Sequence record: OR896834.1
DNA: 64,000 bases
Reading direction: 5' to 3' (one strand)
DNA from: Escherichia phage Baret
The notes beneath the pieces were generated by a model, which saw only the letters and a list, made by a program, of their open reading frames with translations, was not told the DNA's origin and ran no database searches. The translations under genes and the position numbers were made by a program. Of this stretch, positions 33,300 to 41,277 are shown piece after piece. Numbering within the stretch: the first letter of the stretch is position 1; every line of letters begins with the position of its first letter.

Positions 33300-34090
33300 A
33301 GCGAGCCGATTACGCTGAACTTGTCTTAATGTAAGATGCGTCAAGCACTAAGATTCGTTGAATAGAGTCGGTGGGTTAGTTGTAAAACTAGTACACAGGG
33401 GGCGGCAATCCCGGTTAGTGGCTAGAACGTGTAAAATGAGGCGTCTGAAACCTCTCCCCTAAACTCTTCTCTAATTTATAAATAGTGGGGTGTGGAAATC
33501 ACTTATGTAGTAACACTGCCGTCCTAGTATAATTGGTATTATCAAGCCGTAACTGGTGGAAGATGTAGGTTCGAATCCTACGGTCGGTAAGAACTGGATA
33601 ACTGATGCTTTTAACGTAAAAGCTTCCGAGGTTAGTTGCGCACTGCCTAAACCACGCGGTAGTTGGTTCCAGACTAACCAACCAGTCTGCTGAATAGTTT
33701 TATTACGATTTAACTATGCCCAGGCTAAAGAAGAACTTTAGAAGGTATTCTAGGGTAGTGAAGTTCTTTCTCCATATCGGAGTAGTTTTTCAAGCTATCC
33801 ACAAAGTGGGAAATGCTGACATGAGAGATGTCACTAATGGTGCACAATAGCACAGGTAATTCGCGATAACTCCTGTTGAGTAGCAGCAAAAGGTGGGAAG
33901 TCATGACCCCAAGCCTAACCGAGTCCTCAATATACCGCAGGACATAACCACTAAGTCACCCTGACTTAAACTGGAAAATAATAGACGTTACCGTATTTTG
34001 TCTTGAAATACTTAATGAGTGAGACTTATGACTCTCCCGGTATCGTCTGTATTTTTAAGAGTTTTTACGAGAGTTCTTAAAAATACTTAA
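33300..34090 (+). other. ORF-free structured region (candidate noncoding RNAs) upstream of tRNA-Arg
   Basis: No ORF of 60 aa or more; stacked hairpins (GTTGGTT/AACCAAC, AAGAACTT/AAGTTCTT, TTTTTAAGA/TCTTAAAAA); DnaA-box-like CTATCCACA. Confidence 0.3.
33518..33589 (+). pseudogene. tRNA-like element (degenerate)
   Basis: Canonical T-arm GTAGG-TTCGAAT-CCTAC and 6/7 acceptor pairing, but no convincing anticodon arm. Confidence 0.25.
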
Positions 34091-35879: not shown

Positions 35880-35957
35880 GGTTCTCAAGCTCATATGGTA
35901 TGAGCACCCGGCTCATAACCGGAAGGTACGTAGGTTCGAATCCTCGGGGAGCCACCA
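35880..35957 (+). tRNA. tRNA with CAU anticodon (Met/Ile2-type), CCA encoded
   Basis: Acceptor GGTTCTC/GGGAGCC, D-arm GCTC...GAGC, anticodon loop CTCATAA; T-stem has mismatches. Confidence 0.5.
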
Positions 35958-38293: not shown

Positions 38294-38812
38294 GTGCATA
38301 CAAAAGTTTTTGATAGTTTGGTAAAGAAAGGCGTTGTTACTAACGAGCCCTTCTATATAACCGCAGAACTAATCCAGAGATTTATGGAAGAATATATAAA
38401 TCTTTCAGGAACCAATGGTAATACCAAAAAGAATACAAATACTATGTATTCGAGAAAACTTGCTGCACTTTCCTTTATAAAGTTTAAGCAGGAAAATAAA
38501 CTTCCTATTTCTGAAGGTTTTGTATACTGTATTAGTAATCCTGCATGGAAAAATCAGTATAAAATAGGTATGAGTCAAAATCCAAAAGAGAGATTAGCTC
38601 AATATCAGACTTATTCCCCTTATAGGGATTATAAGTTAGAGCATTGGTCTTTTTGGTTTGACAAACGAAAAGGTGAAAAACTAATTCACCAGTATTTCAA
38701 AGATTTAAAAGAACATGAGTGGTTTAGTATAAATTCTAGGGATCTTAGTAAATATCTAGAACGTATTAACTCTAGTTCTGACTTATATGGTTCCTTAGCT
38801 CTAATTGGTTAG
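38294..38812 (+). CDS. T5orf172/GIY-YIG-like domain protein (172 aa, GTG start)
   Basis: GFVYCISNPAWKNQYKIGMSQNPKERLAQYQT matches the T5orf172 (MUG113) signature; 3' end overlaps tRNA-Asn by ~24 nt. Confidence 0.55.
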   Translation: MHTKVFDSLVKKGVVTNEPFYITAELIQRFMEEYINLSGTNGNTKKNTNTMYSRKLAALSFIKFKQENKLPISEGFVYCISNPAWKNQYKIGMSQNPKERLAQYQTYSPYRDYKLEHWSFWFDKRKGEKLIHQYFKDLKEHEWFSINSRDLSKYLERINSSSDLYGSLALIG

Positions 38813-38866
38813 AGCGGCATCTTGTTAAGTTGAGGGTTGCTGGTTCGAATCCAACAGGAACCGCCA
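38789..38866 (+). tRNA. tRNA-Asn (anticodon GUU), CCA encoded
   Basis: Acceptor GGTTCCT/AGGAACC, D-arm GCTC...GAGC, anticodon loop TTGTTAA (stem with mismatches), T-loop TTCGAAT. Confidence 0.6.
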
Positions 38867-38968: not shown

Positions 38969-39154
38969 ATGTCCAAGAATGTAATTGCGCAGCTAGAAGT
39001 TCATCGTGATAGCACTATCAACAATATTGAAGTTGAGAAGAAATACATAGAAGAACTTAAACATGATATACTGGTAAGTCTCAACCGTCTTAATGTACGA
39101 AAAGAGTTTCTTAAAGAACTTAATGCAGCTATTGAAAAACTCAAAGCTGAGTAA
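38969..39154 (+). CDS. hypothetical coiled-coil micro-protein (61 aa)
   Basis: Track ORF. Confidence 0.4.
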   Translation: MSKNVIAQLEVHRDSTINNIEVEKKYIEELKHDILVSLNRLNVRKEFLKELNAAIEKLKAE

Positions 39155-39163
39155 ATGAATTAT

Positions 39164-39240
39164 GCGACCGGGGCTGGCTTGGTAATGGTACTCCCCTGTC
39201 ACGGGAGAGAATGTGGGTTCAAATCCCATCGGTCGCGCCA
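39164..39240 (+). tRNA. tRNA-Asp (anticodon GUC), CCA encoded
   Basis: Acceptor GCGACCG/CGGTCGC, anticodon arm CTCCC-CTGTCAC-GGGAG, T-arm GTGGG-TTCAAAT-CCCAT. Confidence 0.8.
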
Positions 39241-39257
39241 AATAAGGTAGGTTAGCT

Positions 39258-39416
39258 ATGGAACGTAGGGAGTTTACTCCAGAAGAGATAGAGCAGATAA
39301 AAGAATCTGCTATGAAAAATGCTAGAATATCTCTGTCACTGGAAGGTATCATTATTAGTGATGTAAACTTTGAAAAAATCAAAGCCATAGCTGATGAACT
39401 GGAAAAAGTAATTTAA
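39258..39416 (+). CDS. VbhA/FicA-antitoxin-like micro-protein (52 aa), not in ORF track
   Basis: AAGGTAGG RBS; sequence NARISLSLEG contains the (S/T)xxxE(G/N) inhibitory motif of Fic antitoxins. Confidence 0.45.
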   Translation: MERREFTPEEIEQIKESAMKNARISLSLEGIIISDVNFEKIKAIADELEKVI

Positions 39417-39417
39417 T

Positions 39418-39493
39418 ACATCCATAGCTCAATGGTTAGAGCTACCGCCTCTTAAGCGGAGGGTTCTAGGTTCAAGTCCTAGTGGGTGTACCA
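39418..39493 (+). tRNA. tRNA-Lys (anticodon CUU), CCA encoded
   Basis: Acceptor ACATCCA/TGGGTGT, D-arm GCTC...GAGC, anticodon loop CTCTTAA, T-arm CTAGG-TTCAAGT-CCTAG. Confidence 0.75.
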
Positions 39494-39519: not shown

Positions 39520-39867
39520 ATGATTAATGCTAAAGAAGAATTGTTACTTGCCCTAAAGAATACTAATTCTGAAGTTAAGTGTATTAAGATAGAATTCGGT
39601 TATTATGGGGATAAAGAAGTTTGGGTATTACCCGTAGGTTATACAGAAAAAGATATTGAAGATTTTCTAGATAATCTAGACTTTAAATATGATTCTGGTT
39701 TCGGCGGACAATTGCTTTATGGTAACGTATGGTTTACCGATGGAACTTGGTTAGAACGTGGTGAATATGATGGTTCTGAATGGTGGGAATATAAGACTAC
39801 ACCAGCAATCCCAGAAGAATGCCGAACAATTAATGGTGAAGTAGATCGTACTTTACTATTAAATTAA
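39520..39867 (+). CDS. hypothetical protein (115 aa)
   Basis: Track ORF. Confidence 0.5.
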   Translation: MINAKEELLLALKNTNSEVKCIKIEFGYYGDKEVWVLPVGYTEKDIEDFLDNLDFKYDSGFGGQLLYGNVWFTDGTWLERGEYDGSEWWEYKTTPAIPEECRTINGEVDRTLLLN

Positions 39868-39869
39868 CA

Positions 39870-40250
39870 AAATTTCAGTGCAGAACACGGAGCTAGCAAT
39901 TCGGAAGTGCTGACTCATGATAAGCTGCCTATGTACTTGCGAAGCGGTCGTGTCCAAGACTCGGACTCTTGCACTGAAAACAATCAAACATTCTAGCGTG
40001 GTTGATGGGGAAACCAGCTTGGCGAGGGCAGAAGCTCGTTCGATTCGAGTGAAAGAATGGTTCTCGTAAGTCCGCACAAGTGATAACAGGTTCGAGTCCT
40101 GTCTAGAATGACACTATAAAGTTTACTTATTATGTAGGTTCCGATAGACCGGCGGGTCTATTCTGGCATTTAAGAGAGGTCTCGCAAACTTCTTTGTCAG
40201 CCGTGGGGTTGGTAGCCTCCAGGTGGCCTACACAATAAGTAAATTTATTA
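39870..40250 (+). other. ORF-free structured region with tRNA-like modules
   Basis: T-arm-like hairpins CTCG-TTCGATT-CGAG and ACAGG-TTCGAGT-CCTGT; 7-nt pairing ATTCTAG (39990-96) with CTAGAAT (40103-09) spanning ~120 nt. Confidence 0.3.
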
Positions 40251-40259
40251 AAAATTCAT

Positions 40260-40288
40260 TTGCTATTCTGCTTTATTATCTGTATAAT
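40260..40288 (+). promoter_or_regulatory. sigma70 promoter (TTGCTA-17-TATAAT)
   Basis: aaaaattcatttgctattctgctttattatctgtataat. Confidence 0.65.
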
Positions 40289-40320
40289 ATATTTTATAAA
40301 GTGAAGAGAAGGAAAGCAAA

Positions 40321-40479
40321 ATGAAACACAAGATAGCTCAAGTTTTTATGGCATTATGGTGTATACCAATAGCTATAACAGCATTTAATCTAGATACTTT
40401 TACTATAGAAGAAAAATGTATCGGATTAGTTAGCGGTTTTAGTATGCTGGGCTTATCTTTGCTGTGGTTAAAGAAATAA
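40321..40479 (+). CDS. small hydrophobic membrane protein (52 aa), not in ORF track
   Basis: ATG after GAGAAGGAAAG RBS; two predicted TM segments. Confidence 0.45.
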   Translation: MKHKIAQVFMALWCIPIAITAFNLDTFTIEEKCIGLVSGFSMLGLSLLWLKK

Positions 40480-40483
40480 TATT

Positions 40484-41198: not shown

Positions 41199-41277
41199 GG
41201 GGGATGGGTCTGCTAGGGGTGGACACCTCGCTTGCACCGAGGACATCAGAACGATTCGAATTCGTTATCCTCCACCA
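41199..41277 (+). tRNA. tRNA-Ala (anticodon UGC), CCA encoded
   Basis: Acceptor GGGGGAT/ATCCTCC, anticodon arm CCTCG-CTTGCAC-CGAGG, T-arm AACGA-TTCGAAT-TCGTT. Confidence 0.8.

What the first reader, a model, noticed from the sequence alone, without database searches (positions are those of the whole stretch)
39258..39416. Orphan VbhA/FicA-antitoxin-like micro-protein embedded between tRNA genes
A 52-aa ORF with a good RBS, missed by the 60-aa ORF cutoff, contains NARISLSLEG, which fits the (S/T)xxxE(G/N) inhibitory motif by which VbhA/FicA antitoxins block Fic-domain AMP-transferases. No Fic toxin is encoded nearby, so a phage-borne copy could neutralise a host Fic/Doc-type toxin or defence system.
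Basis: inference. Interest (0 to 1): 0.65.

Follow-up and report, generated by a model that had tools for sequence, protein, structure and literature searches.

The report
Phage-borne orphan Fic-toxin inhibitor candidate
A real, conserved 52-residue gene wedged between two tRNA genes of a T5-like phage looks like a stripped-down copy of a bacterial mini-protein that sits beside Fic-type toxin genes in anti-phage defence islands, so it is probably a phage counter-measure that switches such toxins off, though nobody has tested this.

Summary
The ORF exists as described: 39258-39416, + strand, 52 aa, strong RBS, between tRNA-Asp and tRNA-Lys(CUU). It is under purifying selection. The window is a T5-like phage.

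No Pfam or NCBIfam model hits it, so formal VbhA/YhfG membership fails. The bare S-x3-E-G motif is no rarer than chance.

1. The extended motif N-[AF]-x2-S-x2-L-E-G, shared with VbhA and YhfG, occurs once in the window against 0.005 expected.
2. Profile-profile scores to VbhA and YhfG equal or exceed the score those two families give each other (0 of 150 shuffles reach them).
3. AlphaFold2 (pLDDT 91) predicts a helical hairpin with S25 and E29-G30 at the C-cap of helix 1.
4. Its only non-phage relatives are 65-71-aa proteins. In 8 of 12 arrangements their genes overlap the 3' end of a Fic gene that has a canonical active site and no internal inhibitory motif. That Fic's closest solved relatives are the class-I toxins FicT and VbhT. 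These pairs sit in the P2 defence hotspot, on IncI plasmids, and next to EcSofic in E. coli islands.

No T5-like phage encodes a relative of that Fic. T5 itself lacks the ORF.

Best reading: an orphan FicA-like trans-inhibitor used as anti-defence (confidence 0.6). It is a new variant of a known kind.

The parts
39258..39416 (+). 52-aa ORF (phrog_19286): candidate orphan FicA-like Fic inhibitor
   Evidence: ORF listing and sequence; phrog_19286 E 2e-37; purifying selection; homologues in Demerecviridae and one T4-like contig
39243..39252 (+). Shine-Dalgarno-like sequence TAAGGTAGGT, 5 nt upstream of the ATG and starting 3 nt after tRNA-Asp
   Evidence: read directly from the sequence; no sigma-70-like promoter immediately upstream, so the ORF is presumably translated from the tRNA-cluster transcript
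39279..39341 (+). predicted helix 1 (residues 8-28), the putative inhibitory helix
   Evidence: AlphaFold2, mean pLDDT 91.2, helix 8-28
39318..39347 (+). codons for N21-A-R-I-S25-L-S-L-E29-G30: a polar stripe N/S/E on one helix face plus a Gly cap; putative inhibitory Ser and Glu
   Evidence: N21, A22, S25, L28, E29, G30 invariant in A1. S and G invariant, and E in 11 of 12, across the extended family. Same register as VbhA N16/S20/E24/G25 and YhfG. Unique extended-motif hit in the window
39360..39410 (+). predicted helix 2 (residues 35-51), packing against helix 1; conserved SD-x2-[FW]-x-KI...LE-x-VI
   Evidence: AlphaFold2; conservation
39164..39240 (+). tRNA-Asp(GUC), upstream neighbour (context)
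   Evidence: ARAGORN and Rfam
39418..39493 (+). tRNA-Lys(CUU), downstream neighbour; together with the ORF it forms an insertion relative to phage T5
   Evidence: T5 has tRNA-Asp followed directly by T5.067. The same ORF-tRNA-Lys order is found in My1 and STWB21

Best explanation
The ORF encodes a minimal helix-loop-helix protein that acts as a trans-inhibitor of Fic-domain AMP-transferases, in the manner of class-I Fic antitoxins (VbhA, FicA/YhfG). Helix 1 would lie across the Fic active site. S25 and E29 at its C-terminal end would displace or compete with the gamma-phosphate of ATP, so the enzyme cannot AMPylate its targets.

The phage has no Fic gene of its own. The protein is a shortened homologue of a 65-71-aa enterobacterial protein that is the apparent cognate partner of a ~340-aa class-I-like Fic (PADLOC candidate PDC-S04 type). 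That pair is carried in defence islands, on IncI plasmids and in the P2 prophage defence hotspot.

Expressed from the tRNA-cluster transcript during infection, the phage copy would keep such a Fic toxin silenced when the host's own inhibitor is lost, and so block abortive infection.

Shown here: the gene is real and under selection; the motif is conserved; the fold is predicted with confidence; it is homologous to the bacterial small protein; that protein is tightly linked to class-I-like Fic genes; the phage copy is an orphan. Inferred: binding to Fic, inhibition through E29, the identity of the target, the timing of expression, and the anti-defence role.
For: 1. Motif and conservation. E16, S17, A18, N21, A22, R23, S25, L28, E29, G30, S34, D35, F38 and E39 are invariant in 11 T5-like copies. 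S-x3-E-G is kept in very divergent copies from Klebsiella, Proteus and T4-like phages and in all bacterial relatives.

2. Rarity. The extended motif shared with VbhA and YhfG is unique in the window (1 vs 0.005 expected).

3. Calibrated remote homology. Phage family vs VbhA profile: hhalign P 7.6e-4 over 29 columns. Phage family vs YhfG profile: P 1.6e-4 over 36 columns. Positive control VbhA vs YhfG: P 9.7e-4 over 14 columns, in the same register. Column-shuffle nulls: observed scores 22.8 and 24.2 against 9.8+-2.2 (max 18.0) and 8.8+-2.1 (max 16.5); 0 of 150 shuffles reach them. VbhA and YhfG are the antitoxin chains of PDB 3SHG/3ZC7 and 5JFF/5JFZ.

4. Structure. AF2 pLDDT 91.2, helix 8-28, loop, helix 35-51, with the motif at the C-cap of helix 1. 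The bacterial relative has the same topology.

5. Homologues. An exhaustive HMMER search of 1.84 billion representatives found the bacterial relatives at E 9e-6 to 7e-4. The reverse tblastn of the 71-aa protein against phages hits only T5-like ORFs, at up to 59% identity and E 4e-6.

6. Context. In 6 of 10 independent genome or metagenome loci, plus E. coli IncI plasmids and P2-like phages, the small gene converges on and overlaps (typically by 4 bp) a Fic gene. The pair persists while the Fic diverges to ~35% identity and the small protein to 33%.

7. Nature of the partner Fic. All copies carry HPF[EQ]DGNGRxxR and no internal [ST]xxxE[GN]. Their best solved relatives are the class-I toxins E. 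coli Fic/FicT and VbhT (E 1e-12). PADLOC PDC-S04 matches at E 1e-31.

8. Defence setting. The pair lies next to EcSofic (identical to PDB 9VJC), on a tRNA-Leu island with a phosphorothioate-dependent restriction enzyme, and between gpA and gpQ of P2-like phages, which is the P2 defence hotspot.

9. Plausible selective pressure. SoFic is reported to protect robustly against T5 (PMC12249575). T5 lacks the ORF.

10. Accessory, mobile distribution. 109 phage records carry it, against 474 that share the flanking DNA. One copy lies in a T4-like contig a few kb from Acb1.

11. Precedent. Orphan phage antitoxins are known to defeat DarTG (PMC11825919, PMC11481870).
Against: - No curated HMM (Pfam VbhA or YhfG, NCBIfam, PADLOC) recognises the ORF.
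- The hhalign probabilities are modest (25-62%). They fall to about 5% or less when the bacterial subfamily is added or used alone.
- In the bacterial pairs the small gene is convergent with Fic, not upstream and co-directional as vbhA and yhfG are.
- Four of 10 bacterial loci have the small gene without a Fic. One of these has Asp in place of the key Glu.
- PDC-S04 is only a candidate defence family, and one native-host test found no defence activity.
- No binding, inhibition or expression data exist, and a co-fold with a Fic protein could not be run here.
Confidence: 0.6

Rival explanations
1. The ORF is homologous to the bacterial small protein, but that protein is not a Fic active-site inhibitor. 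It could be a transcriptional or antisense regulator, an independent small toxin or antitoxin, or a sensor or adaptor that merely travels with Fic genes in defence islands. The phage copy would then act as a decoy, a regulator mimic, or something unrelated to AMPylation.
For: The gene arrangement is convergent with overlapping 3' ends, which is atypical for type II antitoxins. Four of 10 loci have the small gene without Fic, beside other cargo: MkoB, ThsB-TIR, TacA, or an unknown 238-aa protein. The bacterial form has an extra Arg-rich N-terminal beta-hairpin that VbhA and FicA lack. The bacterial subfamily alone shows no significant similarity to VbhA or YhfG.
Against: The S-x3-E-G motif at the helix C-cap is the most conserved feature across the whole family. 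The partner Fic lacks exactly that motif internally, and it belongs to the branch of Fic proteins known to need a trans inhibitor. The phage branch resembles both known antitoxin families in the same register.
Confidence: 0.2
2. The ORF has a function tied to its tRNA neighbourhood, for example protecting or processing the adjacent tRNA-Lys(CUU) or countering a tRNA-targeting host nuclease. On this reading the Fic-like motif is incidental.
For: The ORF always lies inside the tRNA cluster. In three lineages it is followed directly by tRNA-Lys, and the ORF plus tRNA-Lys(CUU) is one indel relative to T5.
Against: Copies in Klebsiella and Proteus phages, and the copy on a T4-like contig, are not next to tRNA-Lys. 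Bacterial homologues have no tRNA link but a strong Fic link. Many unrelated small ORFs also fill gaps between tRNAs in T5-like phages.
Confidence: 0.1
3. It is a chance ORF or a functionless remnant between tRNA genes, carrying a fortuitous motif.
For: The ORF is very short. The bare motif is as frequent as chance predicts. No curated family hits it.
Against: There is an excess of synonymous changes. The ORF is conserved across four Demerecviridae lineages at protein level with divergent DNA. It has a strong RBS, a confident AF2 fold, and significant homologues in bacteria.
Confidence: 0.03

Closest known systems
VbhA (antitoxin of VbhT, Bartonella schoenbuchensis; Pfam PF18495; PDB 3SHG, 3ZC7)
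   Same: A small helical protein with N-x3-S-x3-E-G at the C-terminal end of its first helix. hhalign puts the phage family in the same register (42% identity over 26 columns to VbhA itself; P 7.6e-4 to the family profile). The E24G variant is deposited as PDB 3ZCB; from my own knowledge that variant abolishes inhibition. E24 corresponds to phage E29.
   Different: No PF18495 HMM hit. The regions after the motif are unrelated: the phage protein has two predicted helices, whereas VbhA, from my own knowledge of the crystal structure, has three. The phage gene has no adjacent toxin. The bacterial relatives are convergent with their Fic rather than upstream of it.
FicA / YhfG (antitoxin of E. coli Fic/FicT; Pfam PF10832; PDB 5JFF, 5JFZ)
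   Same: A 55-aa protein from the same host range, with core NFQASRRLEG against phage NARISLSLEG. This is the best profile-profile match (P 1.6e-4, 36 columns, 50% probability). Two phage-family members reach the YhfG HMM weakly (E 0.026 and 0.15). The review PMC7758455 describes the mechanism as an invariant Glu competing with ATP gamma-phosphate binding.
   Different: All hits are below the Pfam gathering score (22.6 bits), and the window ORF itself gives none. yhfG overlaps the start of fic co-directionally. The K-12 Fic has a degenerate motif, HPFRVGSGLAQR, whereas the partner Fic of the new family is canonical.
65-71-aa enterobacterial and P2-like-phage small proteins paired with PDC-S04-type Fic (e.g. 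E. coli WP_024166655.1 with WP_023155462.1); undescribed as far as the searched literature shows
   Same: True homologues of the phage ORF. They align without gaps over about 40 residues at 45-59% identity, with the same helix-loop-helix and motif position.
   Different: They carry an additional N-terminal ~30 residues (a predicted beta-hairpin, Arg-rich) that the phage ORF lacks, and they are physically coupled to a Fic gene. The phage copy is an orphan.
AS1 (anti-Sofic1), a 47-aa antitoxin of EcSofic (PMC12249575)
   Same: A small protein encoded near a Fic-domain defence gene in E. coli that neutralises its toxicity. EcSofic lies directly beside the Fic/71-aa pair in the E. coli islands found here.
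   Different: The AS1 sequence is not published in the paper, and the authors state that its mechanism is unknown. No 47-aa ORF lies between SoFic and the neighbouring Fic in L012. SoFic is class II, with its own internal SSRIEN motif. Identity or homology with the present family is unresolved.
Orphan phage antitoxins used as counter-defence, such as DarG-like proteins against DarTG (PMC11825919, PMC11481870); T4 Dmd against RnlA/LsoA (own knowledge)
   Same: The same strategy: a lytic phage carries only the antitoxin-like half of a toxin-antitoxin defence module.
   Different: A different toxin class (Fic AMPylase rather than ADP-ribosyltransferase or RNase) and a different inhibitory principle (steric active-site obstruction rather than enzymatic reversal). 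No experimental evidence exists yet.

Membership tests
VbhA family (Pfam PF18495) | Sequence scores above the Pfam gathering threshold for PF18495 | tested here: not met
   No PF18495 hit at E<=10 for the ORF or for any of 12 family members. All true VbhA homologues retrieved carry PF18495.
VbhA family (Pfam PF18495) | Inhibitory motif (S/T)xxxE(G/N) on an alpha-helix | tested here: met
   S25-L-S-L-E29-G30. S and G are invariant, and E is present in 11 of 12 members. AF2 places the motif at the C-cap of helix 8-28, pLDDT 91.
Class I Fic antitoxins (VbhA / FicA) as a functional class | Encoded adjacent to a Fic toxin that lacks its own inhibitory helix | tested here: inconclusive
   The phage ORF itself is an orphan. 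Its bacterial, plasmid and P2-like homologues are adjacent to, and overlap, a Fic gene without an internal [ST]xxxE[GN] in 8 of 12 arrangements, but in convergent rather than co-directional orientation.
Class I Fic antitoxins (VbhA / FicA) as a functional class | Detectable sequence relationship to known members | tested here: inconclusive
   hhalign P 7.6e-4 (VbhA) and 1.6e-4 (YhfG), against 9.7e-4 for VbhA vs YhfG. 0 of 150 column shuffles reach the observed scores. Probabilities are only 25-62%, and lower still with the bacterial subfamily.
Class I Fic antitoxins (VbhA / FicA) as a functional class | Binds Fic and blocks AMPylation through the conserved Glu competing with the ATP gamma-phosphate | not testable with these tools
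   This needs co-folding or biochemistry.
YhfG / FicA family (Pfam PF10832) | Sequence scores above the Pfam gathering threshold (22.6 bits) | tested here: not met
   The window ORF gives no hit. Relatives P0066 (14.8 bits, E 0.026; trimmed 0.0041) and P0008 (12.3 bits, E 0.15) are sub-threshold.
phrog_19286 (phage protein family of unknown function) | Full-length HMM match | tested here: met
   E 2.3e-37, residues 1-52 against profile positions 1-52 of 52.
Orphan phage antitoxin counter-defence (DarG-like precedent) | Homologue of a bacterial toxin-partner protein, carried by a lytic phage without the toxin | tested here: met
   Homology to the 71-aa Fic-partner protein. No relative of that Fic was found in the window or in any T5-like phage record.
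Orphan phage antitoxin counter-defence (DarG-like precedent) | Neutralises the corresponding defence system during infection | not testable with these tools
   This requires plaque assays and toxicity-rescue experiments.
AS1 (anti-Sofic1) | Sequence identity or homology to the 47-aa EcAS1 | not testable with these tools
   The AS1 sequence is not given in PMC12249575. No 47-aa ORF lies downstream of SoFic in L012.

The most novel reading that the evidence does not exclude
The ORF is the first anti-Fic counter-defence protein. It would be a minimal, portable inhibitory helix that lytic phages (T5-like and at least one T4-like) captured from a previously undescribed two-gene defence module: a class-I-like Fic plus a convergent FicA-like mini-protein, found in the P2 hotspot, on IncI plasmids and beside EcSofic. 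It may inhibit several Fic defence enzymes, possibly including SoFic. That would explain why T5, which lacks the gene, is restricted by SoFic, and it predicts that ORF-bearing relatives escape.
Probability: 0.35. Interest if true: 0.85.

Novelty: new variant of a known kind. Interest (0 to 1): 0.68.

Why it matters
Fic-domain proteins (SoFic and the PDC-S04 candidates) are listed among anti-phage defence systems. How they are held in check, how infection activates them, and whether phages counter them are all open questions; PMC12249575 says so explicitly for SoFic and T5.

This finding supplies three things:
1. A concrete candidate phage inhibitor.
2. A natural contrast for experiments: T5 lacks the gene, while close relatives that infect E. 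coli K-12 carry an identical copy.
3. A previously unremarked two-gene module (Fic plus a convergent S-x3-E-G mini-protein) sitting in the validated P2 defence hotspot.

If confirmed, it would extend the 'orphan antitoxin as counter-defence' principle from DarTG to AMPylating toxins. It would define a third sequence family of trans-acting Fic inhibitors, and it would give a 52-residue tool for switching Fic enzymes off.

Tried and rejected
- **Curated libraries.** Pfam, NCBIfam and PADLOC scans of the ORF gave no meaningful hit. InlK_D2 and DUF7443 at E~0.1 were rejected as noise.
- **phmmer against the PDB.** It returned only light-harvesting proteins and anamorsin (E 0.04-1.4), rejected as low-complexity helical matches. 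The A3 profile against the PDB also gave nothing.
- **hhalign with added or isolated bacterial sequences.** Scores against VbhA and YhfG dropped to 0.1-6% probability. The remote-homology signal therefore rests on the phage branch.
- **The search for related loci with A3.** It failed because no stretch was conserved enough. I replaced it with the bacterial subtype alignment A4.
- **AF2 on the bacterial alignment built from loci.** I repeated the job with eligible sequences. For the same reason I did not attempt a linker-fused co-fold with a Fic protein.
- **Are the 47-aa relatives P0067 and P0068 the published 47-aa AS1?** No. P0067 is on a T4-like phage contig and P0068 on an uninformative 2-kb contig.
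- **Search for AS1 downstream of SoFic in L012.** No 47-aa ORF is there.
- **E. coli K-12 FicT as the intended target.** I consider this less likely. T5 has no copy of the ORF, and from my own knowledge T5 grows on K-12. K-12 Fic also has a degenerate catalytic motif.

Full report
**What is there.** The window is a T5-like phage (Demerecviridae). The 1.3 kb around the finding is 99.9% identical to Salmonella phage SPLA5b and matches 474 phage records. It runs from ATG 39258 to TAA 39416 on the + strand and encodes MERREFTPEEIEQIKESAMKNARISLSLEGIIISDVNFEKIKAIADELEKVI, 52 aa. TAAGGTAGGT lies 5 nt upstream of the ATG. The ORF sits between tRNA-Asp (39164-39240) and tRNA-Lys(CUU) (39418-39493), inside a cluster of 22 tRNA genes. 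There is no sigma-70-like promoter directly upstream, so it is presumably translated from the tRNA-cluster transcript.

**Is it a gene?** Yes.
- It matches phrog_19286 (function unknown) over its full length, E 2e-37.
- tblastn finds it in 109 phage records, all Demerecviridae on Salmonella, Klebsiella, Escherichia, Proteus, Pectobacterium, Erwinia and Pantoea.
- Between diverged copies, changes concentrate at third codon positions. Window vs My1 gives 6/2/16 differences at positions 1/2/3, with 13 synonymous and 7 non-synonymous codon changes.
- It is an accessory gene. Phage T5 goes straight from tRNA-Asp to T5.067, lacking both the ORF and tRNA-Lys(CUU). Only 109 records carry the ORF, against 474 that share the flanking DNA.

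**Is the motif meaningful?** The bare [ST]xxxE[GN] motif is not. It occurs 46 times in the six-frame translation, against about 50 after codon shuffling. The family conserves much more than that. E16, S17, A18, N21, A22, R23, S25, L28, E29, G30, S34, D35, F38 and E39 are invariant in 11 T5-like copies.

I verified the VbhA sequence against PDB 3SHG/3ZC7 and took YhfG from the E. coli K-12 yhfG-fic locus. YhfG is the FicA chain of PDB 5JFF/5JFZ. All three share N-[AF]-x2-S-x2-L-E-G: NALASQRLEG, NFQASRRLEG and NARISLSLEG. N, S and E are spaced i, i+4, i+8, so they lie on one helix face. That extended pattern occurs once in the window's six frames, against 0.005 expected.

**Formal family tests.** Pfam (including PF18495 VbhA and PF10832 YhfG), NCBIfam and PADLOC do not recognise the ORF. 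Two relatives reach the YhfG model only below threshold (E 0.026 and 0.15; gathering score 22.6 bits). Membership of either Pfam family is therefore not met.

Profile-profile comparison gives a calibrated picture.

| Comparison | hhalign probability | P | Columns |
|---|---|---|---|
| Phage family vs VbhA profile | 25% | 7.6e-4 | 29 |
| Phage family vs YhfG profile | 50% | 1.6e-4 | 36 |
| VbhA vs YhfG (positive control) | 22% | 9.7e-4 | 14 |

With the narrower alignment A1, the VbhA comparison gave 62% probability and P 7.7e-5. All alignments place the motif in the same register. Column-shuffled versions of the phage alignment never reach the observed scores:
- VbhA: 22.8 observed, null 9.8+-2.2, maximum 18.0.
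- YhfG: 24.2 observed, null 8.8+-2.1, maximum 16.5.
- 0 of 150 shuffles reach either score.

So the phage family is as close to each known trans-acting Fic inhibitor family as those two are to each other. Adding the bacterial subfamily dilutes the signal to 6% or less. I report that as a weakness.

**Relatives outside T5-like phages.** This is the decisive evidence. An exhaustive HMMER profile search of 1.84 billion representative proteins found only 12 hits. Besides T5-like copies, they include a 47-aa copy on a 172-kb T4-like phage contig, a few kb from Acb1. From my own knowledge, Acb1 is the anti-CBASS protein. The hits also include a distinct subtype (E 9e-6 to 7e-4).

Genome and metagenome scans show that this subtype is a conserved 71-aa protein of Enterobacterales, found in Serratia, Yersinia, Phytobacter and E. 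coli. It aligns with the phage ORF without gaps over about 40 residues. The reverse tblastn of the 71-aa protein against all phage records hits only the T5-like ORFs, at up to 59% identity and E 4e-6. AF2 gives it the same helix-loop-helix, with S44...E48-G49 at the helix-1 C-cap, preceded by a lower-confidence N-terminal beta-hairpin that the phage version lacks.

**Link to Fic.**
- In 6 of 10 independent loci (L002, L008, L010-L013), the small gene converges on a ~338-aa Fic gene and overlaps its 3' end, typically by 4 bp.
- The same pair occurs in 36 of 5,426 complete E. coli genomes and on three conjugative IncI plasmids.
- A more divergent version sits in P2-like phages of Yersinia and Salmonella. 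There the Fic is ~35% identical and the small protein is 65 aa, 33% identical (E 1e-12), still carrying S-F-S-L-E-G and the 4-bp convergent overlap.
- A gene pair that keeps its arrangement across that much divergence is a functional module, not a chance neighbourhood.

**What kind of Fic.**
- All partners have a canonical HPF[EQ]DGNGRxxR motif and no internal [ST]xxxE[GN], so they are class-I-like.
- Their best matches among solved structures are E. coli Fic/FicT (5JFZ, 5JFF) and VbhT (3ZCB, 3SHG), at E about 1e-12. These are the toxins that YhfG/FicA and VbhA neutralise.
- In PADLOC they match the candidate defence family PDC-S04 (E about 1e-31, near full length). They match SoFic only over the Fic core.

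**Defence setting.**
- In E. coli S10 the pair lies on a tRNA-Leu-integrated element with an integrase, MobH, ArdC and a phosphorothioate-dependent restriction enzyme. It is directly next to a (there frameshifted) SoFic.
- In L012 the neighbouring SoFic is intact and essentially identical to EcSofic, PDB 9VJC (E 8e-220). Its catalytic His is at position 194 and it has an internal class-II motif, SSRIEN.
- In the P2-like phages the pair lies between replication gene A and the portal gene. Rousset et al. identify that locus as the P2 anti-phage hotspot (PMC9122126).
- Fic-less copies sit beside MkoB, ThsB-TIR and TacA, or next to comM.

**Mechanism proposed.** In class I Fic systems the antitoxin supplies an inhibitory helix, and its conserved Glu competes with the ATP gamma-phosphate (PMC7758455). 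I propose two things.
1. The 65-71-aa proteins are the cognate trans-inhibitors of their class-I-like Fic partners.
2. The phage ORF is a shortened, orphan copy of the inhibitory hairpin. Expressed during infection, it would keep such Fic enzymes off and prevent abortive infection.

This is consistent with the report that SoFic protects robustly against T5 (PMC12249575), since T5 lacks the ORF. It also fits established precedents of orphan phage antitoxins against DarTG (PMC11825919, PMC11481870). Binding, inhibition, target identity and expression timing are all inferred.

**Caveats.**
- Curated HMMs do not hit the ORF.
- The gene orientation is convergent, unlike vbhA and yhfG.
- Four of 10 bacterial loci lack a Fic, and one of those copies has Asp for the key Glu.
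- PDC-S04 is only a candidate family. One native-host test of a PDC-S04 gene found no defence activity (bioRxiv 10.1101/2024.12.20.629700).
- The relation to the published 47-aa AS1 antitoxin of EcSofic cannot be settled. Its sequence is not in the paper, and no 47-aa ORF lies between SoFic and the neighbouring Fic in L012.

**Novelty.** Full-text searches found no phage-encoded FicA/VbhA-like protein, no anti-SoFic or anti-Fic phage gene, and no description of the Fic plus convergent mini-protein module. The mechanism class (trans inhibitory helix) and the strategy (orphan antitoxin as counter-defence) are both known. I therefore rate this a new variant of a known kind.

**Verdict.** Confidence in the Fic-inhibitor mechanism is 0.6 and interest is 0.68.

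Noticed in passing
window 39258-39493; T5 locus L014 8553-8655: The 52-aa ORF and tRNA-Lys(CUU) together form one insertion relative to phage T5, which goes directly from tRNA-Asp to T5.067. The same ORF-then-tRNA-Lys order recurs in Pectobacterium phage My1 and Salmonella phage STWB21, which suggests a mobile two-part cassette.
   Followed up: partly
L012 3117-5418; L020 7001-9513: In E. coli islands the Fic/71-aa pair lies directly beside EcSofic (identical to PDB 9VJC). That makes two different Fic-domain genes (class-I-like and class II) in tandem. In strain S10 the SoFic copy is frameshifted.
   Followed up: partly
L030 2405-3684; L031 1884-3184: P2-like phages of Yersinia and Salmonella (vB_YpM_22, STYP1, R18C, FSLSP004) carry a Fic gene annotated 'vbhT' plus a convergent 65-aa S-x3-E-G protein. 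The pair sits in the gpA-gpQ defence hotspot. This is a candidate two-gene defence module that I did not find described.
   Followed up: partly
L016 524-841 (Salmonella phage vB STyj5-1; same as P0066): In some Epseptimavirus genomes the FicA-like core is annotated as the C-terminal half of a 105-aa protein. The N-terminal ~55 residues are Cys-rich (CSCG...CC...CKKCC), so this may be a zinc-ribbon fusion or an over-extended gene call.
   Followed up: no
L022 1-427 and 5001-5144: A 47-aa family member lies on a 172-kb T4-like phage contig, in a run of small accessory genes that includes Acb1 (from my own knowledge, the anti-CBASS protein). The family is therefore not confined to Demerecviridae.
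   Followed up: no
window 38294-38812 and 38789-38866: A 172-aa ORF (T5.069 homologue, annotated as a GIY-YIG nuclease in one relative) overlaps the first 24 nt of tRNA-Asn. The same overlap exists in T5.
   Followed up: no
window 39520-39867: The 115-aa ORF downstream (T5.067 homologue, phrog_3972) has a C-terminal stretch that hits an excisionase PHROG (E 1.5e-6). It is annotated 'excisionase' in some relatives, which is odd for a strictly lytic phage.
   Followed up: no
window 39868-40480: About 600 nt with no convincing ORF and no Rfam match. In T5 the equivalent position holds the stable RNAs rna2 and rnaIV, of unknown function, and promoter P13a.
   Followed up: no
window 33518-33589, 35880-35954, 41199-41277: Rfam finds two tRNA-like matches that ARAGORN did not call (33518-33589, 35880-35954). 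ARAGORN's tRNA-Ala at 41199-41277 does not reach Rfam's gathering score. These may be divergent or tRNA-like RNAs, as annotated in T5.
   Followed up: no
L003 2510-2719: One Fic-less bacterial copy, next to MkoB and a ThsB-like TIR gene, has Asp in place of the conserved Glu (EIDG). It could be a decaying orphan or a variant with altered activity.
   Followed up: no
window 38969-39154: The 61-aa ORF between tRNA-Asn and tRNA-Asp is a full-length DUF7337 / phrog_5473 protein (T5.068 homologue). It is another conserved micro-protein of unknown function in the tRNA cluster.
   Followed up: no
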